A DNA stretch of 41,044 bases, taken from a virus. Positions 4,665-41,039 of the stretch are shown here, one piece after another (position 1 is the stretch's first letter; each line of letters opens with the position of its first letter). The DNA lies in the UHGV virus genome UHGV-0106252. One strand, given 5' to 3'. The notes below the pieces were generated by a model. It was given only the letters and a program-made list of their open reading frames with translations. It was not told where the DNA came from and searched no databases. The position numbers and the translations under genes were made by a program.

Positions 4665-5135
4665 CTAATAAAATACCCAATTTTCTGTTTCTTGGTTGTG
4701 CCCAAAGTTATATTCAATATCTGGTGTTGATGTATCAATATTCTTCATCCCATCAACAAGAGTTGATACAACAGCCAAATCTTGTTTGATTCTCATTAAA
4801 TGGTATTTCTTCCGGCGTAATAAACTTTCAATGGCAAGTTTCTTCGTTGGGAATGCAAAAGATCTTTCTGCATTTTTTGCTACTTTCTTAATTGCATATC
4901 TATTTCTCTTTTGTTTCCATTCCTGTAACCACTGATTTGGTGCTGGTTTAAAATTAACAATCCAATGCGCAGGAACCAACCATGCATAATGCTCTGTCTG
5001 ATGAAAAGCTATATATTGAAGTGCGAATATTTTGATTCCATCTTCTTCAACTGTCGCCTGGAATCTCCAGAAAACAGGCATTCCATCATGTTCAGTTTCT
5101 GATTCAGGAAAAGGTACGCTCCATGATTTTGTCAT
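4665..5135 (-). CDS. Hypothetical 156-aa protein (AT-rich moron in pL operon)
   Basis: Long ORF in a visibly AT-rich segment between N and cIII. No recognisable motif and no obvious transmembrane segment. Confidence 0.5.
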   Translation of the reverse strand: MTKSWSVPFPESETEHDGMPVFWRFQATVEEDGIKIFALQYIAFHQTEHYAWLVPAHWIVNFKPAPNQWLQEWKQKRNRYAIKKVAKNAERSFAFPTKKLAIESLLRRKKYHLMRIKQDLAVVSTLVDGMKNIDTSTPDIEYNFGHNQETENWVFY

Positions 5136-5391: not shown

Positions 5392-5775
5392 TCATCTCGC
5401 CGTCAGTTGTTTTGATTTCCGGTATCCTGCTGCGTAAAGAGCTACATTTGGAAGACATACACCAGTTTCTGGTTGCTTATGTCCAAACTCATTCGCGTAC
5501 ACAATGGCCGCTCTCTCCAGATTGCGTCTGTATTCTTTCTGTTGCCAGATCACGTCCTGTGCCATGAACTTAATTGGCTTAGCGTCTTCTATGCGCTCAG
5601 GCGTTTCGTGAGTACCTTTAGCCTGAATCTGCGCTCTGCTTAGAGTAGGGCGGTGTAATACTTCTGAACTTATTGCTTCTTCGCGGGCCAGTACGCCGTT
5701 AGCTAATGCCTTTGCCTTTAAACGCTCACGACGACGAGAACGTGAATTGCCTTTGAACTGAGTTCTGCGTGTCAT
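5392..5775 (-). CDS. N: N-like transcription antiterminator (P22 gene-24 type)
   Basis: Arg-rich motif near N-terminus (NSRSRRRERLKAKA); C-terminus ...VALYAAGYRKSKQLTAR resembles P22 N. CAGGAGG SD before the ATG at 5775. Confidence 0.7.
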   Translation of the reverse strand: MTRRTQFKGNSRSRRRERLKAKALANGVLAREEAISSEVLHRPTLSRAQIQAKGTHETPERIEDAKPIKFMAQDVIWQQKEYRRNLERAAIVYANEFGHKQPETGVCLPNVALYAAGYRKSKQLTAR

Positions 5776-5903
5776 ATAGACCTCCTGGTGAACTTTGGCG
5801 GTGAATACAGCCGGGCGACTAACTCCGGTAGCGTAATCATTGCAAAGCGCCTCCGCCGAGAAGGTTAGCTTCTGCATTCACCCCAAAGTTCACTTTGGTT
5901 ATT

Positions 5904-5918: not shown

Positions 5919-5988
5919 CGTAGATTCATATTTGAATCGTTGTATATTCACCGCCCTGGTGAGTAGTGCGTCCTGCTGATGTGTTTAG

Positions 5989-6049
5989 TATCACCGCCAG
6001 TGGTATTTATGTCAACACCGCTAGAGATAATTCATCACCGCAGATGGTT
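5989..6049 (-). promoter_or_regulatory. OL1-OL2-OL3 operators and pL promoter (lambda type)
   Basis: TATCACCGCCAGTGGTA (OL1), CAACACCGCTAGAGATA (OL2), CATCACCGCAGATGGTT (OL3); TTGACA/GATACT pL hexamers on the minus strand. Confidence 0.85.
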
Positions 6050-6200
6050 ATCTGTATGTTTTTTATATGAATTTATTTTTTGCAGGGGTGCATTGTTTGG
6101 TAGGTGAGAGATCTGAACTGCTATGTTTAGTGAGTTGTATCTATTTATTTTCAAATAGATACAATTGGTTATGTGTTCTTGGGTGAGGGGGATCGTGAGG

Positions 6201-6227
6201 CAAAGAAAACCCGGCTCTGTGGCCGGG
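6201..6227 (-). terminator. Rho-independent terminator ending the cI operon
   Basis: Minus-strand hairpin CCCGGCC-ACAGA-GCCGGG followed by TTTTCTTTG. Confidence 0.6.
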
Positions 6228-6235
6228 AATAACAT

Positions 6236-6614
6236 TTAGGAATCAAGGTCAGGTAGCATGATTTTCTCAATCAACGTCAATGCCCTTTGGTCTCGTTCAG
6301 CAAAATATTTAGGAGCGTACTGAGGCAGCCACACTTCGTTGAAGTATTGTTTGAAATCTGCAATATTCGTTTGGGTATAGACGTACCGGGAATGTCCGGC
6401 CATCTGGGTACTCATGGTTATATGTTGGGAATGTCTTCGGCTCAACCCCCCGGTTGTCACGGAGCCATTGCGAGAAAACCCTACCCTCTGAAATATCAGG
6501 GACCATTTTTTCTGGCAGCGTATATCCGGCCTGTTCAAGTGGCGCAACCAAGTTAAACGTCAGTTCATTAAGCATAGAAAAGTGCGTATGAGGAACTCTG
6601 CCTCGGTTTGTCAT
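6236..6614 (-). pseudogene. Unknown gene in rexB position, apparently frameshifted
   Basis: Two overlapping same-strand ORFs (6309-6614 and 6236-6547). Protein-like N-terminus in one frame and protein-like C-terminus in the other; frames meet near 6385-6405. Confidence 0.45.
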
Positions 6615-6653
6615 ATACCGCTTAAGGTGGATAGGGAGTTCGGCAGGCGCTCT

Positions 6654-6995
6654 TTAACCTGACATCCACTCACGCACCCATCTCGATACTTGCACTGCAA
6701 ATTTTGGAGATAGCCACTGAGCTAAATTAATTGCGATGTCTGGATGAACCCAAGTCCCTTGATTCTCTGCTCTTCCGCCTTTAAATGATTGAATTAACTC
6801 CGATATGGGAATCCCCATATCGCGTGATAATTCATCAAAAAAATCTTGTGTTGTTTTTAGTCGTGTATAGTCAGCAAGTAGCTTCCCCGCAGACTTGCAC
6901 ATCGCGGTGGCATTGATGTATCCGTCTTTGGTGCGAAGATGGATGACTTCTCCATCAACTTCTCTAGCGATTAATGCAAGTTGAAATTGTGTCAT
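6654..6995 (-). CDS. KilA-N domain protein (stand-alone) in rexA position
   Basis: 113-aa ORF resembling the KilA-N DNA-binding domain; AGGA SD. Immediately downstream of cI in the same operon. Confidence 0.5.
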   Translation of the reverse strand: MTQFQLALIAREVDGEVIHLRTKDGYINATAMCKSAGKLLADYTRLKTTQDFFDELSRDMGIPISELIQSFKGGRAENQGTWVHPDIAINLAQWLSPKFAVQVSRWVREWMSG

Positions 6996-7026
6996 AAATC
7001 ATCCTATTACGTGAAAAATAAAACAA

Positions 7027-7743
<717 letters not shown>

Positions 7744-7750
7744 TTAAATC

Positions 7751-7816
7751 TATCACCGCAAGGGATAAACTTCTAACACCGTGCGTGTTGACTATTTTAC
7801 CTCTAGCGGTGATAAT
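7751..7816. promoter_or_regulatory. OR3-OR2-OR1 operators with pRM and pR
   Basis: TATCACCGCAAGGGATA, TAACACCGTGCGTGTTG, TACCTCTAGCGGTGATA; pR TTGACT (7788-7793) and GATAAT (7811-7816). Confidence 0.9.
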
Positions 7817-7840: not shown

Positions 7841-8041
7841 ATGGAACAACGCATAACCCTGAAAGATTATGCAATACGCTTTGGGCAAACCAAGACGGCT
7901 AAAGATCTCGGCGTATATCAAAGCGCGATTAACAAGGCCATTCATGCAGGCCGAAAGATTTTTTTAACTATAAACGCTGATGGAAGCGTTTATGCGGAAG
8001 AAATAAAGCCCTTCCCAAGTAACAAAAAAACAACTGCATAA
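7841..8041 (+). CDS. cro: Cro repressor (lambda type)
   Basis: 66 aa, near-identical to lambda Cro (two substitutions relative to my recollection). Confidence 0.95.
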
Positions 8042-8507: not shown

Positions 8508-8669
8508 ATGACAAAACGTCGTAAGAAATACCAGGAAAAAGAAGAGATTCGACACCCTGATTCACCTGAGGGATTAGTGGTAGCCGCAGCAAATAACAGG
8601 GCGTTCGCAGAGCGCCTTGTTGGTGTTTACAGACTAGCCAAAGCAGGAGTGAAACATGGGCGTCGTTAA
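8508..8669 (+). CDS. Small basic protein (hypothetical)
   Basis: 53-aa ORF MTKRRKKYQEKEEIRHP... with AGGAGT SD. Not in the ORF track. Confidence 0.3.
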   Translation: MTKRRKKYQEKEEIRHPDSPEGLVVAAANNRAFAERLVGVYRLAKAGVKHGRR

Positions 8670-8718
8670 GTTAGCTGATTACAGGCATAACCCTGTACAA
8701 CATCAGGAGGCATCCAGT

Positions 8719-9546
8719 ATGGGGTATGTCTCTATACACCGCCAGTTTATGGACAGCAGGCTCTATAAGGACTCTCAGGCAGTACATCTTTGGCTTCACT
8801 TAATCCTCAAGGCTAATCACGAATCTACTGTCGTCAATACGGATATCGGTCCGATAACTGTTGATCGCGGTCAGATGATAACTGGACGCCCGTCGCTGGT
8901 CAGAGAAACATTCATCCCCGACAACAAAGTTCGGAGCTTATTACGGACTTTTGAGTCGAAAGGGATGCTTAATATTTGCTCGATGGGGAAGAAATTTAGC
9001 CTGTTTACAATCGTTAAATATGACGATTTTCAGGCAAAAAATTGTCCAACGGTTGTCCAACGGTTGTCCAACGCAAACACCAGTAATGGCGCGGCTCTCA
9101 GCGGAGATTGTCCAACGGTTGTCCAACGGTTGTCCATAAACAATAATATAAATAATATCTCTAATACTGACGTATTAGAGAGTGCCACAGCAGACAAAAA
9201 GTCTGACAAGAAAAAACCTTCCGTTAGCTGTCAGGATGTTGTCGATGCTTACCACGAAATCCTTCCTGAAGCGCCAAGAATCCGCGCACTGAATGACAAG
9301 CGTAAAAACCAGATCCGAACGTTCTGGCGCAAAGCCGGAGTGATAACCCGCCAGCTTGACGGGCATGGGTTCACGATGCAGGACTGGAGAAATTATTTGA
9401 GCTACGTAGGCGAAAATTGCCGATGGATGTTCGAAGAACGCCCAAACCATCAACGCGGAACCGTCTGGCACAAAAAGGGATTTGATTTCCTGCTTAACGA
9501 TAATACCTACCTGAAAGTTCGTGAGGGTGAACACGATGACCGATAA
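8719..9546 (+). CDS. Replication initiator (P22 gene-18 / lambda O type)
   Basis: Contains the iteron array inside the coding sequence (repeated CPTVVQRLS peptide). CAGGAGG SD before the ATG at 8719; an upstream ATG at 8656 is also possible. Confidence 0.7.
   Translation: MGYVSIHRQFMDSRLYKDSQAVHLWLHLILKANHESTVVNTDIGPITVDRGQMITGRPSLVRETFIPDNKVRSLLRTFESKGMLNICSMGKKFSLFTIVKYDDFQAKNCPTVVQRLSNANTSNGAALSGDCPTVVQRLSINNNINNISNTDVLESATADKKSDKKKPSVSCQDVVDAYHEILPEAPRIRALNDKRKNQIRTFWRKAGVITRQLDGHGFTMQDWRNYLSYVGENCRWMFEERPNHQRGTVWHKKGFDFLLNDNTYLKVREGEHDDR
9042..9170. repeat. Replication origin: 11-bp iterons plus AT-rich tract
   Basis: TTGTCCAACGG at 9042, 9053, 9064 (last base variant), 9108, 9119 and a partial copy at 9130; then AT-rich 9139-9170. 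Confidence 0.75.
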
Positions 9547-24576: not shown

Positions 24577-24826
<250 letters not shown>

Positions 24827-24849
<23 letters not shown>

Positions 24850-25327
24850 TTTAGTCCTTGCAGCATTACGTAAGCTCGGTGTGGCATCAAATGCCACGTT
24901 AACCGATGTCGAACCGCAGTCTATGGAAGACGGCGTCAACGACCTTGAAATGATGATGGCTGAATGGCTTGGCGGTGATGTGTCACCTGGTATCAGCGTT
25001 GGCTACATTTTCGCTGATGCAGATGTCGCTCCAGATCCGGGCGATGAGCACGGTTTATCAAATAACGCTATCAATGCTGTTATTTTCAACCTTGCCTGCC
25101 GCATTGCACCGGATTATGCGCTGGAAGCGCCTGCAAAACTTATAACCACTGCCAGATACGGGAAAGAGCGACTCGTCAAACTGTCTGCAATGGACAGAGC
25201 AAAAGCCGCTAAATGTAAGTCCGGTTATCCAAACCGTATGCCTGTTGGTAGTGGTAACCAGTTGGCGAAGTGGAACGGTTGGAATTACTTCCACCGGAAG
25301 GAACCTTGCGATAACGGGAGCGAATAA
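24827..25327 (+). CDS. Head-completion / tail-adaptor protein (P22 gp4 type)
   Basis: [33 protein letters not shown]... parallels P22 gp4 (166 aa). The ORF-track start at 24716 is a repeat-driven extension. Confidence 0.85.
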
Positions 25328-35062: not shown

Positions 35063-35572
35063 TCACCTACCATGATTCTCATGATAACCATAGGTCTTTT
35101 CAGCCTCACGCCTTACAGCAATTGCATCATCGAGACACTTAAAGTATCCGAGATTAATGCGCTTCCCTGCGTCGCTAATATATGCCACCCACTTTTTATG
35201 GGTCTTATGCCATGAAACACCTGCGCACCCAGATGTATTGTTTGTGTATTTAGATTTGTTTTTTAGGTTTTCACCGAGACTAACTAGACGCAGGTTGTCT
35301 ATTGAATTATTTAACCCATTACCATCTTTATGGTCAATTTGCATTCCTGAAGGGATTTCACCATAAAACATTTCCCATATTATCCTATGGGCGGCGTATA
35401 TTTTATCTTGATACCTGATAATTATATAAGATGTTTTCCTGTTCTTGTCCTTGAATATATGTCCTGCAGGCTTTTCTTTAGAGATATTGAACATTTTGGG
35501 TCTTGAAAGATATTGGTCACTCCAGTACAGGAGTCCATCGTCTTTTAATACGAATACTTCGTTCCAGTTCAT
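35063..35572 (-). CDS. HNH homing-type endonuclease with C-terminal AP2 DNA-binding domain
   Basis: HNH motif IDHKDGNGLNNSIDNLRLVSLGENLKNK, then AP2-like SGCAGVSWHKTHKKWVAYISDAGKRINLGYF. AAGGTGG SD before the ATG at 35572. AT-rich. Confidence 0.75.
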   Translation of the reverse strand: MNWNEVFVLKDDGLLYWSDQYLSRPKMFNISKEKPAGHIFKDKNRKTSYIIIRYQDKIYAAHRIIWEMFYGEIPSGMQIDHKDGNGLNNSIDNLRLVSLGENLKNKSKYTNNTSGCAGVSWHKTHKKWVAYISDAGKRINLGYFKCLDDAIAVRREAEKTYGYHENHGR

Positions 35573-35658
35573 GTTAACCACCTTTAAATAAAGTTCACTC
35601 ATTATACAAAAACATGCTAGCAATGAATATTGCTTGCTTAACATATAGAGAAATTAAA

Positions 35659-37605
35659 ATGACAGATTCAATAAATGCCAATGTTGTGGTAAGCATGCCT
35701 TCGCAACTCTTCACTATGGCTCGTTCTTTTAAAGCCGTAGCCAATGGCAAAATTTATATCGGTAAAATTGACACTGACCCTGTAAATCCTGAAAACCAGA
35801 TTCAGGTTTATGTGGAAAACGAAGACGGCTCTCACGTTTCTGTTGCACAGCCAATCATCATTAACGCTGCTGGATATCCGGTATATAACGGGCAGATTGC
35901 CAAATTCGTAACTGTGCAAGGCCATTCTATGGCTGTATATGATGCGTATGGCACGCAGCAGTTCTATTTCCCTAATGTGCTGAAATATGACCCTGATCAA
36001 TTTCAGGAAAGATTGCTATCTGAAAATGGGCCATTATTAGTTGATGATTCAGTTGTTCGTGTAAAACAACCCCTCTCTATGGCAATCGAGAGAGCACAGC
36101 ACGATAAAAATGCAGATTTTGTGAGCGCGAAAGACTTTGGGTTTAAAGGTGATGGCACGAATGATGATGCTGCGGTGCTCAAACTTAAAGATTACGTTAA
36201 CACAAGACCTAAATATTCTCCACCAGTATCCGTGTACTTTCCAGATGGAAATTATCTTATTAGCGAGTCATTGAATTTAATTAGACCTGTTACTTTATAC
36301 TCTTTTAAAGGAGCAACAATAAACTATACTGGAACTGACGCTGCAGTTAAGTGTGGAGATCCAACTGACGAAGATCAACCAACAGCAGATAATTTTTATC
36401 AAGGTGATTATGTAATTTATGGAATTAGATTCACTGGTGGTCAAAATGCAAAGTTTGGAATAATGGTAAAGAGCTTTGTTTTTACACCAAAAATACAATA
36501 TTGTGATTTTATTGATTATGGTAATAAGGATTCTTATGATATATATGCTCAGTTTGAAAACTGGGATATCCTTATAGAAGGATGCTATAAAAAAACATTT
36601 TTTAGTGATATTGCAATAGGTAATTTCATTTCTTTACCTGGTAAAAAAACGGATGGCAGTGCATATGATGGTGGGAACTCTAGAGTTACAATAAGAGATT
36701 GCGCCATGGCAGCATATAACAATCAAGATTTAGGATATTTTGCCTATATTAACTGCGTTAAGGGGCGAGTAATTGGAGGTAGTGCGCATCACTCTACAGG
36801 TGGAATACTACTTGGACCAGCGGCATCTGGAACGCTTATTGATGGATTTTATTGTGAAGTAAGTACTCAACACAGACCTTGGGTAATATCTGTTTTAAGT
36901 GATAAAACTAATCCTGATAATTATTTGTTTCCTCAGTCTGTTACGGTAAGAAATGTGTATGTAAATATGCATAAAGAAAAAATTGGTAATGCTGGTAAGC
37001 TTATTGGTGTCATGGATGCTGATGTGAAGTTAAGAGACTGGAGTGTAACAGACTGCCAGATTTCAAACTTCGAAAATGGTCAAGTTCTTATTGATAGAAA
37101 TGATCTTAATGAGCAGATCGGTAACACTTATGCAAGAATAAAACCAATTTTTGTTCCTTATAATTCTGGTGGTGGAAGTAAATTTATTGTTACTGGAAAA
37201 CTAACAACAGCAGAAGACTGGTCGTGTGGTGATATAGAAACTGGAGTTTGGATTCCGACTGTAGGCGGAAATGCCTCCTACTATAAACAAGTTGGAAGTT
37301 ATACAAGAACTGGTGATGTAGTGACCGCAAGTTTTCACATAGGGATAACGATTATTGGAAGTGGAGATGGTTATAGGATAGGTGGATTACCTTTTTTGTC
37401 ACGACCAGGGGCTACTTCTGTTGGATCTATTGGGTATTACAATAACTTAACTACGGCTGTGGCTGCGCTATTGCCTAGGGTTGATGCTGAAAGTAATTAC
37501 ATAACATTTACAGGAGCTACATCTGTCGCTGGTAATATGAATGTACAACTAAATGTTCTAGGTAATAATGCTGAGATAATTGGTTCTGTTACTTATTTTA
37601 TATAA
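35659..37605 (+). CDS. Tailspike protein (P22 gp9-like head-binding domain, divergent receptor domain)
   Basis: N-terminal ~110 aa ([35 protein letters not shown]...) parallels the P22 tailspike head-binding domain; the rest is AT-rich and unlike the P22 beta-helix as I recall it. Confidence 0.8.
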
Positions 37606-37665: not shown

Positions 37666-39666
37666 CTAATTAATTACAAAGCCGTTATCATTAAGTATTT
37701 CTTTAACACCAGATTTAGATAAGTGAAAACCAACATTATATAATCCGCCGTTATGGTCAATTATTCTACAACCATTGTCATCACATAAAGTTTTTATAGG
37801 TTTTATCTTATGCAATCCTTTCATGTCAGGAATATATTTATCTAATATATCGGATTGTTGTTTTGCTAAGTTAAGCCCATTTCTGCTGCTTGTGTATGTT
37901 GTCTCAAACTTATAATTGATAGATCTTAGTTTTGAGAATACTATGTTGGCAACATCTTCAGAAGGATTAGGGGTTGGGTATACAATATATACATCATGCC
38001 CCTTGGACACGAGTTTCTTAACATTATTCGATAGAGAGATATATGCCTGCTCGCCACCTAAAAAATCTCCGCCACTAAAATTTTGCTTCGCCATCTCTAA
38101 AGGAGATGACACAGGAGCCTTAGCAAGCGGGAATTGATCATAATTAGCAGCTATAAAAATAGTTTTCTTCCCCTTAAGAGAATCAATGGCTTTCCATCTT
38201 TGCTCATTGACAACCACACATTCAGGAACATTGCCAAACCACATATCACTCACAAATGGACATTGCTCATACGTGAGAGATAACATCCCTTTGTTATTTT
38301 CTTTTGAGTAATCTAAAATTGTTGGTGCATATTGTCCAGCATAGCTATCTCCTAATACGATGATGTCATCACCGCCAAAGCTACACGGGTTATCAAGAGA
38401 ACGTAAACCACATAAATAACTATCAGGTTCACCTCTTAAACTTTTACCAATATTTGAATAATCTGCCAATTTCCTGAACTCTGGTTCTTTGTACATTTCA
38501 TAGGTTTCTTTCAGAATGCCTGCAAGACGCCACTGAAAACCCCCATCGGCCTTTGCATAAATAGAGAAAGCAAGCAATGCTGACAGAGATGTTGCTAATA
38601 CTATTGTATTCTTACTTTTAACATGTTTTGCTCTATATGGTTTTTCAATAAAAAAATATGAAAAAGACGAAATAACAATTGAAATTGATGCTAATACTAC
38701 ACAGTAATAAGGAGTGATATTTTCACTAAATAATATCCTGTAAAAAACAAAAACAGGTTGATGCCATAAATATAGAGAATATGATATCAAGCCAATAAAG
38801 ACAATCGGACGCAAGGATAATATTTTAGATATTAAATCGGCACCATTTGCAAATGCGATTATCAAACATGAACCAGCTACAGGTATTAGGGTGATAAATG
38901 AAGGGTGTTTGATGTTATTTCCAAAAAACAACATTGAATAAACAATCATCAACATTCCAATTACTGGCAGAAACGAAGTTAAAGATGATTGGTCTTTATG
39001 TATATTGCTTCTTCTTTCTTTTACAAAAAAAGACACAATTCCACCAAGAATTAATTCCCATGCCCTTGGTAGTAGCGTATAGAATGCTAAGTCAGGGTAA
39101 CTGCTAACTATAATATTTGCATACACAATAGATGAAACAGAAATCAATATAAGAAGTAATACTCTGTATTTCTTAATAAATTTATTTATAAAAATCAATA
39201 AGAATGGATAAAATACGTAGAATTGCCATTCAACAGCAAGACTCCATGTATGAAGGAGTGGTTTAAATATACTTGCATTTGATACATAGCTATCTTCACC
39301 AAGAAAATAATAATTAGAACCAAAATAAATAGCAGAAATGAGAGATTCAGAGAATTTTACTAAGTCATTTGGTAGAAGAATTTTATAAGCCACTATCGAT
39401 GTAACTACAAGCATAGCAATAAGAGCAGGAACAATTCTCTTTATGCGTCTCCAATAGAAGTCAGTTAGTGAGAAAGAGCGGCTATCAAGTTTATTTATAA
39501 TGATATCTGTAATTAAATATCCTGAAAGAACCAGGAAGACATCAACTCCAAAGAATCCGCCTTTGAATATCTTTACTCCAAACAAAGAAATGCCAGAGTG
39601 ATAAATGATGACAGCCATCACTGCCAAACAACGCAATCCATCAAGCTCTTTCCTATACTTAAGCAT
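37666..39666 (-). CDS. oac: O-antigen acetyltransferase (acyltransferase-3 membrane domain plus SGNH domain; Oac/OafA-like)
   Basis: 666 aa; N-terminal multi-TM acyltransferase-3 domain (RCLAVMAVIIYH...), C-terminal SGNH-like domain. AT-rich. Same position as oac in Sf6. Confidence 0.75.
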   Translation of the reverse strand: MLKYRKELDGLRCLAVMAVIIYHSGISLFGVKIFKGGFFGVDVFLVLSGYLITDIIINKLDSRSFSLTDFYWRRIKRIVPALIAMLVVTSIVAYKILLPNDLVKFSESLISAIYFGSNYYFLGEDSYVSNASIFKPLLHTWSLAVEWQFYVFYPFLLIFINKFIKKYRVLLLILISVSSIVYANIIVSSYPDLAFYTLLPRAWELILGGIVSFFVKERRSNIHKDQSSLTSFLPVIGMLMIVYSMLFFGNNIKHPSFITLIPVAGSCLIIAFANGADLISKILSLRPIVFIGLISYSLYLWHQPVFVFYRILFSENITPYYCVVLASISIVISSFSYFFIEKPYRAKHVKSKNTIVLATSLSALLAFSIYAKADGGFQWRLAGILKETYEMYKEPEFRKLADYSNIGKSLRGEPDSYLCGLRSLDNPCSFGGDDIIVLGDSYAGQYAPTILDYSKENNKGMLSLTYEQCPFVSDMWFGNVPECVVVNEQRWKAIDSLKGKKTIFIAANYDQFPLAKAPVSSPLEMAKQNFSGGDFLGGEQAYISLSNNVKKLVSKGHDVYIVYPTPNPSEDVANIVFSKLRSINYKFETTYTSSRNGLNLAKQQSDILDKYIPDMKGLHKIKPIKTLCDDNGCRIIDHNGGLYNVGFHLSKSGVKEILNDNGFVIN

Positions 39667-39836: not shown

Positions 39837-40994
39837 TTACAGCACACTTTCATCAAGCCAGTCCGCCCACCACTGCATCATTTCTCTGCGCTTATCGAGA
39901 TACTGAGCATGGTTGTAAATACCGCGCACAGATCCTCCGTTGGCATGTGCCAGTTGCACTTCAATAGCGTCAGCAGGCCATTCGTGCTCGTTCATAATCG
40001 TGCTGAATTCATGCCTGAATCCGTGACCGCTTTCCAGACCTTCATAGCCGATTTGTTTGATCACAAGTAGTACCGCGTTCTCGCAGATTGGCTTCTTCTT
40101 ATCGTTGCGTCCGGCAAAAACAAACTCTGATACTGGTTTAGTGATTGAGCTTAGCGTAGTGAGAAGTTCAACCACCTGGTCTGACATAGGAACAACATGA
40201 ATCTTGCGGCCCTTCATCACACTGGCGTCGATAGTGATAATCCTGTTTTCAAAATCGACGTTCTTCCATTGCATGGAACGAAGCTCTTTTGTTCTGAGGG
40301 CTGTGTAGCGTAAAACTTTGGTCGCAATGAGCGATACGATACTTCCTGAAAATGTTGCCAGTGCTTTGTTGAATGCCGGGATCTGGTCTGCAGGAAGAAA
40401 CGGGAAGTTCTTCTTGCGGTATCCCTTCATGGCGTCAGCAAGGTCAGGTGCCGGGTTATATTTAGCCCTTCCGGTGACAATAGCGTAACGGAAAACCTCG
40501 CCGCATCTTCTGCGTGCTTTGTTGGCTCGCTCCATTGCACCGCGATCTTCAAACCTGCGGATTACTTCCAGCAGTTGCATAGGCTCAATATCCTGAATTT
40601 CAAGGCCGCCGATGATAGGTAAAATGTCGTCATCAAACATTTTTGCAAGTTCAGTTGCATAGCCTACTGACCAGACTTGCTTCTTGTGCTCGTACCATTC
40701 CTTGTAAATCGCACTAAAGGAATTGTTGTTAGACGAAGCCTTTTTCGCTTTTACCGGATCGATGCCAACCGAGATGTCTTTCCTCGCAGTCCATGCTTTA
40801 TCCCTTGCCTCCTGCAAAGTCATAAGCGGATATTTTCCTACGGTCAGGATTTTCTCCTTACCGTCAATCTTGTAGCGAAGCTGCCATACCTTTTTCCCTG
40901 ACACAGGGACATAAAGGTACAGGCCATTACCATCGAGTAGGCGGTATGGTTTTTCTTTCGGCTTTGCTGCTTCAATCTGCTTAACGGTGAGCAT
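39837..40994 (-). CDS. int: Tyrosine integrase (P4/IntS family)
   Basis: N-terminal DUF4102-type arm-binding domain; C-terminal catalytic domain with R...HGFRH...Y. ATG at 40994 gives 385 aa; the ORF track extends to a GTG at 41030. Confidence 0.9.
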   Translation of the reverse strand: MLTVKQIEAAKPKEKPYRLLDGNGLYLYVPVSGKKVWQLRYKIDGKEKILTVGKYPLMTLQEARDKAWTARKDISVGIDPVKAKKASSNNNSFSAIYKEWYEHKKQVWSVGYATELAKMFDDDILPIIGGLEIQDIEPMQLLEVIRRFEDRGAMERANKARRRCGEVFRYAIVTGRAKYNPAPDLADAMKGYRKKNFPFLPADQIPAFNKALATFSGSIVSLIATKVLRYTALRTKELRSMQWKNVDFENRIITIDASVMKGRKIHVVPMSDQVVELLTTLSSITKPVSEFVFAGRNDKKKPICENAVLLVIKQIGYEGLESGHGFRHEFSTIMNEHEWPADAIEVQLAHANGGSVRGIYNHAQYLDKRREMMQWWADWLDESVL

Positions 40995-41039
40995 GGGTAA
41001 AAATCCGGTGGGTAAAATTATTTTATCCACTTTTTACCC
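40995..41039. repeat. GGGTAAAA / TTTTACCC motif array upstream of int (candidate Int arm or RDF binding sites)
   Basis: GGGTAAAA at 40995-41002 and 41010-41017; TTTTACCC at 41032-41039; degenerate TTTTATCC at 41021-41028. Continues at 36-55. Confidence 0.5.

What the first reader, a model, noticed from the sequence alone, without database searches (positions are those of the whole stretch)
6236..6995. rexA/rexB slot of a lambda-type immunity region holds an unrelated two-gene cassette
cI, cro and both operator sets are almost identical to lambda, yet the two genes between cI and the cI-operon terminator are not rexA/rexB. They are a stand-alone KilA-N domain protein (6654-6995) and a second unrecognised gene (6236-6614). 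Genes here are expressed from pRM in the lysogen, the position lambda uses for Rex exclusion. This is the strongest candidate in the window for an uncharacterised prophage-encoded exclusion or defence module.
Basis: partly seen in the sequence, partly recalled or inferred. Interest (0 to 1): 0.72.

Follow-up and report, generated by a model that had tools for sequence, protein, structure and literature searches.

The report
Broken bstA defence gene beside cI
The "two genes" in the rexA/rexB position of this lambda-immunity prophage are the pieces of one gene of the already described BstA phage-defence family, cut here by a premature stop codon and a 2-base deletion, so the finding is a decayed copy of a known system rather than a new one.

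Summary
cI is 98% and cro 97% identical to lambda. Three operators are identical and three differ by one base. Lambda homology stops at the Timm terminator (window about 6227) and resumes at the cI stop (about 7025). RexA/rexB are absent.

The "two-gene cassette" is one gene. Relatives with 5 differing positions in the gene (E. coli D5, phage PhiR5_2) carry a single 253-aa ORF at this spot. The window copy has GAA to TAA at codon 114 (6654-6656) and a 2-bp deletion at codon 211 (6362-6364).

The intact protein is KilA-N plus BstA_C. It matches PHROG 6287 "BstA abortive infection system" end to end (E 1.8e-82) and the PADLOC BstA model (E 2.5e-20). Its C-terminal half is 29% identical to the tested BstA of Salmonella phage BTP1.

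BstA genes are known to sit directly downstream of prophage repressors (Owen et al. 2021). Copies at least 90% identical to this gene follow at least seven different repressor types.

The double-lesion allele is real and common, and it most likely no longer defends. The one open point is that the same stop codon recurs on at least two haplotypes, and it leaves a complete KilA-N domain.

The parts
6236..6995 (-). bstA-family gene (KilA-N + BstA_C), here a pseudogene. The intact allele is 762 nt / 253 aa.
   Evidence: Differs at 5 positions from the intact ORFs in E. coli D5 and phage PhiR5_2. PHROG 6287 BstA E 1.8e-82 over the full length, PADLOC BstA E 2.5e-20.
6654..6995 (-). Fragment 1: 113-aa ORF holding the complete KilA-N domain. 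It ends at the premature TAA (6654-6656), which is GAA (Glu114) in intact alleles. An AGGA Shine-Dalgarno lies 6 nt before the ATG.
   Evidence: Pfam KilA-N E 1.7e-27; alignment A1 column 377; sequence read.
6365..6653 (-). Linker and first part of the BstA_C domain (residues 115-210 of the intact protein), stranded behind the stop codon. An internal ATG at 6614 (Met127) has no canonical ribosome-binding site.
   Evidence: PHROG 6287 positions 164-253, E 6.6e-30; PADLOC BstA E 4.3e-12; sequence read.
6362..6364 (-). Site of the 2-bp (TC) deletion, a frameshift at codon 211.
   Evidence: Alignment A1 columns 670-671. The deletion-specific 22-mer is found in 11 loci and the intact 22-mer in 2.
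6236..6361 (-). Last 42-43 codons of BstA_C, now in a different frame; the original TAA stop is at 6236-6238. This stretch carries 5 of the 53 residues that are invariant among the 41 homologs aligned (F215, F219, W223, Y231, F232).
   Evidence: PHROG 6287 positions 245-301, E 4.4e-9; invariant columns of alignment A4.
6962..7024 (-). Position equivalent to the aba self-immunity DNA element of BTP1 (29 bp upstream plus the first 34 bp of the gene). Assigned by position only. No sequence similarity to the BTP1 aba element is expected, because aba elements are cognate.
   Evidence: PMC8585504. The stretch differs from the intact D5 allele at one base (nt 9 of the gene).
6210..6227 (-). Timm-type intrinsic terminator of the cI operon, shared with lambda. 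It is the left edge of the swapped cassette.
   Evidence: Terminator scan; alignment with lambda.
7027..7740 (-). cI repressor, lambda immunity type. The bstA-like gene starts 31 nt after its stop codon.
   Evidence: 232/237 identical to lambda cI; HTH_3 + Peptidase_S24.
7751..7814 (.). OR3 (7751-7767), OR2 (7774-7790) and OR1 (7798-7814). The pR promoter was detected at 7788-7816. pRM is placed here by analogy with lambda and was not detected by the scan.
   Evidence: Alignment with lambda; promoter scan finds pR at 7788-7816.
7841..8041 (+). cro
   Evidence: 64/66 identical to lambda Cro.
5987..6049 (.). pL (5987-6015, minus strand) with OL1 (5989-6005), OL2 (6013-6029) and OL3 (6033-6049).
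   Evidence: Alignment with lambda; promoter scan.

Best explanation
Window 6236-6995 (minus strand) is a single gene of the BstA family that has been inactivated.

What the intact gene does (inferred from the family). In intact relatives the 253-aa protein is co-transcribed with the repressor in the lysogen. It has an N-terminal KilA-N (APSES-fold) DNA-binding domain and a C-terminal BstA_C domain. By homology to the tested BstA proteins, it blocks DNA replication of a superinfecting phage and aborts the infection. A short DNA element overlapping the start of the gene (aba) would spare the prophage's own lytic growth.

What the window copy makes. A G-to-T change turns Glu114 into TAA, in the flexible linker between the two domains. 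A 2-bp deletion then shifts the frame at codon 211 and removes the last two helices of BstA_C. The lysogen can therefore make at most an isolated 113-aa KilA-N domain, and the abortive-infection function is most likely lost.

Shown here: one gene, two lesions, family membership by sequence, position, and spread of the allele.

Inferred: transcription from pRM, the defence activity of the intact allele, its loss in the window, and the existence of an aba element.
For: One gene:
- Copies differing at 5 positions in the gene hold an uninterrupted 762-nt ORF, annotated as a single KilA-N protein (WP_000191544.1), 31 nt downstream of the same cI.

Family:
- PHROG 6287 'BstA abortive infection system' covers residues 1-252, E 1.8e-82.
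- PADLOC BstA E 2.5e-20.
- BLASTP to BTP1 BstA: 29% identity over residues 133-251, E 5e-15.
- 118 of the 120 best homologs carry both PF04383 KilA-N and PF26567 BstA_C. One of the two exceptions is a partial protein with BstA_C only; the other is the query's own cluster representative, for which both domains are also on record.

Structure:
- AlphaFold2 model of an 81%-identical homolog has mean pLDDT 88.7. It shows two domains joined by a low-confidence linker (pLDDT below 50 at residues 115-117).

Position:
- Copies at least 90% identical lie 31-354 nt downstream of at least seven different HTH + Peptidase_S24 repressors. This is the published BstA architecture (PMC8585504).

Lesions are real:
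- Seventeen independent loci are identical to the window over the 861 nt compared, including both lesions.
- The exact 113-aa product is indexed in 1970 blocks of the collection, on at least 1000 contigs.
- Derivatives of the double-lesion allele carry further indels in the C-terminal half, as expected for a decaying gene.
Against: - No BstA protein of this short subfamily (253 aa, canonical KilA-N) was among the three tested experimentally. Those were 298-307 aa. The similarity to BTP1 BstA is confined to the C-terminal domain.
- The PADLOC BstA model aligns only to the C-terminal half.
- The same stop codon sits on a second haplotype whose C-terminal frame is intact. The stop falls exactly at the domain boundary. 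A selected function for the truncated product is therefore not excluded.
- Expression and loss of function were not measured.
Confidence: 0.87

Rival explanations
1. The truncated 113-aa KilA-N protein is kept by selection for a job of its own. It could be a DNA-binding regulator. It could be a dominant-negative or decoy that neutralises intact BstA of related prophages. The retained start region of the gene could still act as an aba element. On this view the locus is a remodelled module rather than simple junk.
For: - The stop lies in the disordered inter-domain linker and leaves the whole KilA-N fold intact.
- E114 to TAA occurs on at least two nucleotide haplotypes: GGT-TAA and GGC-TAA, 22 differences apart. 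The H6-type allele differs from its nearest intact relative at only 5 positions, all within nt 340-414 of the gene.
- A Klebsiella protein pair shows the same split.
- Among derivatives of the double-lesion allele, the extra changes fall in the C-terminal half and the flanks. None falls in the 339-nt KilA-N part.
- A good Shine-Dalgarno precedes the ATG.
- Owen et al. note natural homologs that have only the KilA-N half.
Against: - Numbers are small. Several of the extra changes lie in a G6 run that is prone to sequencing error.
- The same 90% cluster holds truncations of other lengths (69, 81, 93, 175, 176 and 239 aa), which fits unselected, repeated decay.
- Much of the allele's abundance comes from one defective prophage remnant next to the pectinesterase gene, so it is clonal.
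- No functional data exist.
Confidence: 0.1
2. The locus is a working split system. KilA-N and BstA_C are made as two polypeptides that act together, which would be the two-gene cassette the first reader saw.
For: - Stop-only alleles with an intact C-terminal frame exist in E. coli H5/H6 and, judging from a pair of proteins, in Klebsiella.
- An ATG (Met127, window 6614) lies 37 nt after the stop codon.
Against: - In the window the 2-bp deletion removes residues 211-253. That stretch includes 5 invariant and 6 nearly invariant residues and the two terminal helices.
- No canonical ribosome-binding site precedes Met127 or Met141.
- 118 of the 120 closest cluster representatives have both domains in one chain, and the one with BstA_C alone is labelled partial.
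Confidence: 0.03
3. The stop codon and the frameshift are sequencing or assembly errors, and the gene is really intact.
For: The 2-bp deletion and a single-base change are the kinds of difference that errors can produce.
Against: Seventeen loci from independent assemblies of different prophages and hosts are identical to the window over the 861 nt compared. Intact alleles are equally reproducible. Neither lesion lies in a homopolymer.
Confidence: 0.01

Closest known systems
BstA abortive-infection proteins (BstA of Salmonella phage BTP1, BstA-Ec, BstA-Kp; Owen et al. 2021, PMC8585504)
   Same: - Two-domain layout: KilA-N or KilA-N-like at the N-terminus and BstA_C at the C-terminus.
- Gene immediately downstream of, and co-oriented with, the prophage CI-type repressor, followed by an intrinsic terminator.
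- C-terminal domain 29% identical to BTP1 BstA (E 5e-15).
- Same PHROG, PADLOC and Pfam families.
   Different: - Shorter: 253 aa against 298-307 aa.
- The N-terminal domain is a canonical Pfam KilA-N. In BTP1 the KilA-N-like region was found only by remote homology detection, and the two N-termini do not align by BLASTP.
- No member of this subfamily has been tested.
- The aba element is unidentified.
- The window copy is disrupted by a nonsense codon and a frameshift.
Lambda rexA/rexB
   Same: Same slot between cI and Timm. Presumably the same pRM-driven expression in the lysogen. Both are abortive-infection functions.
   Different: No sequence similarity. Rex is a two-protein sensor plus membrane channel system. 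BstA is one DNA-associated protein that blocks phage replication.
Other cassettes in the rex slot of wild lambda-immunity phages (HK544, mEp332, HK542, HK244; GenBank EF120455-EF120458)
   Same: Conserved cI, operators and Timm flank a swapped insert. The cassette exchange happens at the same boundaries.
   Different: Those phages carry other genes: a 345-aa ORF in mEp332, and 183-aa plus 93-aa ORFs in HK544. They do not carry the KilA-N/BstA_C gene.
Stand-alone KilA-N proteins and APSES DNA-binding domains (Mbp1, Bqt4)
   Different: Here the stand-alone state arises from a premature stop in a two-domain gene, not from a native single-domain gene.

Membership tests
BstA abortive-infection family | C-terminal BstA_C domain (Pfam PF26567) | tested here: met
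   - Intact allele: PADLOC BstA E 2.5e-20; PHROG 6287 E 1.8e-82; BLASTP to BTP1 BstA E 5e-15.
- PF26567 is on record for the close homologs and for the 55-aa tail ORF.
- In the window the domain is present only as two out-of-frame pieces.
BstA abortive-infection family | N-terminal KilA-N or KilA-N-like DNA-binding domain | tested here: met
BstA abortive-infection family | Located directly downstream of the prophage repressor, in the same orientation, and followed by a terminator | tested here: met
   The gene starts 31 nt after the cI stop, and Timm lies 9 nt after the original stop. Close copies sit downstream of at least seven repressor types.
BstA abortive-infection family | Single uninterrupted polypeptide containing both domains | tested here: not met
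   TAA at codon 114 and a 2-bp deletion at codon 211. This feature is met by the intact alleles in E. coli D5 and phage PhiR5_2.
BstA abortive-infection family | Cognate aba DNA element overlapping the gene start that suppresses BstA during the prophage's own lytic growth | not testable with these tools
   aba elements are specific to each BstA and have no shared sequence signature (PMC8585504). Only the equivalent position (6962-7024) can be named.
BstA abortive-infection family | Abortive-infection phenotype with a block of phage DNA replication | not testable with these tools
   This needs phage challenge experiments.
Lambda Rex exclusion system (RexA/RexB) | Sequence homology to RexA or RexB | tested here: not met
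   BLASTP of the 113-aa ORF against RexA gives E 40. There is no nucleotide homology to lambda between Timm and the cI stop.

The most novel reading that the evidence does not exclude
The truncation is not random decay. The same Glu114-to-stop change, placed exactly at the domain boundary, has arisen or been transferred repeatedly, because a free KilA-N domain is useful to the phage. It might work as a dominant-negative or decoy that disarms the intact BstA of competing resident prophages, together with the retained aba-position DNA. It might also act as a regulator. That would make it a defence gene converted into an anti-defence or self-immunity gene.
Probability: 0.08. Interest if true: 0.6.

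Novelty: new member of a known kind. Interest (0 to 1): 0.2.

Why it matters
The practical value is correct annotation. Automatic pipelines label this locus 'KilA-N domain-containing protein' plus a hypothetical protein. It is in fact a dead copy of a BstA-family gene.

Three smaller points may be useful:
- A short subfamily (about 250 aa, canonical KilA-N plus BstA_C) is abundant: 2748 cluster representatives. In Enterobacteriaceae it sits behind many different repressors, yet no member has been tested.
- Intact and broken alleles that differ at 5 positions in the gene exist in otherwise similar lambda-immunity regions. They form a natural matched pair for testing BstA function and for mapping its aba element.
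- The recurrent stop at the domain boundary is a cheap hypothesis to test for conversion of a defence gene into an anti-defence gene.

Tried and rejected
- The local Pfam-A copy gave no hit for the two C-terminal fragments. It appears to lack PF26567 BstA_C, which does show up in the precomputed annotations.
- A scan of GTDB species-representative genomes for the 22-mer spanning codon 114, either allele, found nothing.
The third haplotype therefore rests on protein sequences only.
- Literature searches for later mechanistic work on BstA or on KilA-N defence proteins found nothing beyond Owen et al. 2021.
- I looked by eye for terminal direct repeats like the CCCGCC repeats of the BTP1 aba element around the gene start and saw none. 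Six-base repeats in 90 bp are expected by chance, so I did not pursue this.
- I considered programmed frameshifting or readthrough and rejected it. It would need both stop suppression and a frame change, and intact alleles exist.

Full report
**The observation**

On the minus strand, between cI (7027-7740) and a hairpin-plus-T-run terminator (6210-6227), the ORF list shows three overlapping pieces. They are a 113-aa ORF (6654-6995), a 101-aa ORF (6309-6614) and a 103-aa ORF (6236-6547).

The cI protein is 232/237 identical to lambda cI, and Cro is 64/66 identical. Reading the alignments with lambda gives these operator positions:
- OR3 (7751-7767), OR2 (7774-7790) and OL1 (5989-6005) are identical to lambda.
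- OR1 (7798-7814), OL2 (6013-6029) and OL3 (6033-6049) each differ by one base.
- The lambda spacing between operators is kept.

Lambda homology runs from pL/OL through the Timm hairpin and stops at about 6227. It resumes at the cI stop codon at about 7025. About 800 bp therefore replace the roughly 1.4 kb of rexB, rexA and spacer. The 113-aa ORF has no similarity to RexA. The descriptive part of the finding is correct.

**It is one gene, not two**

A megablast of 6000-7050 against complete E. coli genomes and against phages found near-identical copies in which one 762-nt ORF occupies the slot. It is annotated as a single 'KilA-N domain-containing protein' (WP_000191544.1 in E. coli D5, and a hypothetical protein in phage PhiR5_2). 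It starts 31 nt after the same cI.

The four-way alignment and the pairwise count show five differing positions inside the gene:
- a synonymous change at nt 9;
- G to T at nt 340, turning GAA (Glu114) into TAA (window 6654-6656);
- a 2-bp TC deletion at nt 634-635 (window 6362-6364, codon 211);
- a change at nt 653 (His to Tyr in the original frame).

The 'second gene' is therefore the C-terminal half of the same gene, split over two frames.

**What the gene is**

- The intact protein matches PHROG 6287 'BstA abortive infection system, replication inhibitor' over residues 1-252 (E 1.8e-82).
- It matches the PADLOC BstA model over residues 120-237 (E 2.5e-20).
- The three window fragments hit consecutive parts of the same PHROG profile.
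- BLASTP against the experimentally studied BstA of Salmonella phage BTP1 gives 29% identity over residues 133-251 (E 5e-15).
- The N-terminal 113 residues are a canonical Pfam KilA-N domain.
- A search of the large protein collection found 2748 cluster representatives. Of the 120 best, 118 carry PF04383 KilA-N and PF26567 BstA_C in one chain of about 250 aa, and one partial protein carries BstA_C alone.

**How it compares with what is published**

Owen et al. 2021 (PMC8585504) described BstA as follows:
- It is expressed in the lysogen and colocalises with incoming phage DNA.
- It blocks phage DNA replication.
- During the prophage's own induction it is neutralised by aba, a 63-bp DNA element covering 29 bp upstream plus the first 34 bp of bstA. 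The element is specific to each BstA.

The authors stress that bstA genes lie directly downstream of the prophage repressor, in the slot where lambda has rexAB. I tested that here for this subfamily. I took 49 copies at least 90% identical to the window gene, from complete genomes, public assemblies and IMG/VR. Wherever enough upstream sequence was available, the gene lies 31-354 nt downstream of a repressor. The repressors fall into at least seven sequence types, all HTH plus Peptidase_S24.

More distant homologs (60-73% identity) also occur in a primase-bearing island, next to an MmeI-type restriction gene, or alone. This fits the prophage-independent minority that Owen et al. report.

Exchange of the rex cassette in wild lambda-immunity phages is also on record (EF120455 and EF120456).

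**State of the window copy**

The two lesions are genuine. Seventeen other loci are identical to the window over the 861 nt compared. They include ten different genomic places returned for the exact 113-aa product, E. coli 1008S19, and six IMG/VR contigs.

The exact 113-aa product is indexed in 1970 blocks of the collection, on at least 1000 contigs. The exact intact protein is on 924 contigs. Much of this abundance comes from a degraded prophage remnant next to a pectinesterase gene. That gene may be ybhC beside attB-lambda, which is my inference.

Among 5426 complete E. coli genomes:
- 22 carry an allele at least 95% identical;
- of the copies I inspected, 3 have both lesions and 2 have the stop only.

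The frameshift removes residues 211-253. That stretch holds the two terminal helices and 5 of the 53 residues that are invariant among the 41 homologs aligned. No canonical ribosome-binding site precedes Met127 or Met141, whereas the true start has AGGA 6 nt upstream. The most likely output is an isolated KilA-N domain, with no abortive-infection activity. Derivatives of this allele have picked up further indels in the C-terminal half.

**What remains open**

The stop codon is present on two nucleotide backgrounds.
- One is GGT-TAA, the window type, always with the deletion.
- The other is GGC-TAA, in E. coli H5/H6 and one IMG/VR contig. There the gene follows a different repressor in a Rac-like prophage, and the C-terminal frame is intact.

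The H6-type allele differs from its nearest intact relative at five positions, all within nt 340-414. That points to a short recombination patch or to recurrent mutation. A Klebsiella protein pair shows the same split.

The stop lies in the inter-domain linker, so a selected role for the free KilA-N domain cannot be excluded. Against this, the same 90% cluster contains truncations of other lengths, the counts are small, and some variants lie in a G6 run. I give this reading about 8-10%.

**Context**

The window is a P22-like lambdoid prophage with an apparently complete late region. It carries an antirepressor, a tailspike with a P22 head-binding domain, an O-antigen acyltransferase and an integrase.

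**Verdict**

The finding is a real feature, correctly located, but it is not a new defence module. It is a decayed member of the known BstA family, in the family's known position. Its novelty is limited to being an untested short subfamily, plus the curiosity of the recurrent domain-boundary stop.

Noticed in passing
window 6654-6656; L026:1959-2300; L031: The identical Glu114-to-TAA nonsense change occurs on two haplotypes of the gene that differ at 22 positions. The preceding codon is GGT on one and GGC on the other. The second haplotype differs from its nearest intact allele only within nt 340-414, which suggests a short recombination patch or recurrent mutation at the domain boundary.
   Followed up: partly
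L028:2483-3256 and 117 of 5426 complete E. coli genomes: A 77%-identical paralogue type (257 aa, WP_000200358.1; 86.5% amino-acid identity in phages vB_EcoS-666R9, -673R7 and -613R10) is much commoner than the cI-linked type. In the one locus inspected it is not next to a repressor; it lies near hokD and DUF551/DUF968 genes.
   Followed up: partly
window 9042-9136: Two clusters of the 11-bp unit TTGTCCAACGG (2.9 and 2.6 copies) lie inside the 296-aa replication-initiator ORF (8656-9546). They look like origin iterons. That ORF has no Pfam hit.
   Followed up: no
window 5392-5877 (-): The N antiterminator ORF reads as 161 aa, but the Pfam N_peptide match begins at residue 33. The real start is probably Met35 (MTRRTQFKGNS...), giving the 127-aa product called in related loci. 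This N is not lambda's, and lambda homology ends just left of pL. The N/nutL side and the cII side are of a different type from the cI-cro core.
   Followed up: partly
window 4665-5135 (-): A 156-aa ORF just downstream of N matches phrog_1636 end to end (E 5e-112). That family has no known function, and there is no significant Pfam or PADLOC hit. It sits in the early-left region, where lambdoid phages often carry exclusion genes.
   Followed up: no
window 35063-35644 (-) and 37666-39666 (-): An HNH plus AP2-domain endonuclease ORF abuts the start of the tailspike gene (35614-37605). A 666-aa AT3-SGNH acyltransferase, a likely O-antigen-modifying moron, lies between the tailspike and the integrase (39837-41030).
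   Followed up: no
window 24722-24779: A perfect hexanucleotide repeat, (CAGAGC) x 9.7, lies at the start of the ORF 24716-25327 in the structural-gene region.
   Followed up: no
L006, L008, L011, L014, L015: Many carriers of the double-lesion allele are a heavily degraded prophage remnant: split DnaB, truncated N, RecT and an integrase fragment next to a pectinesterase gene. In L014 the cI gene itself is disrupted. This points to long vertical inheritance of a dead immunity region.
   Followed up: partly
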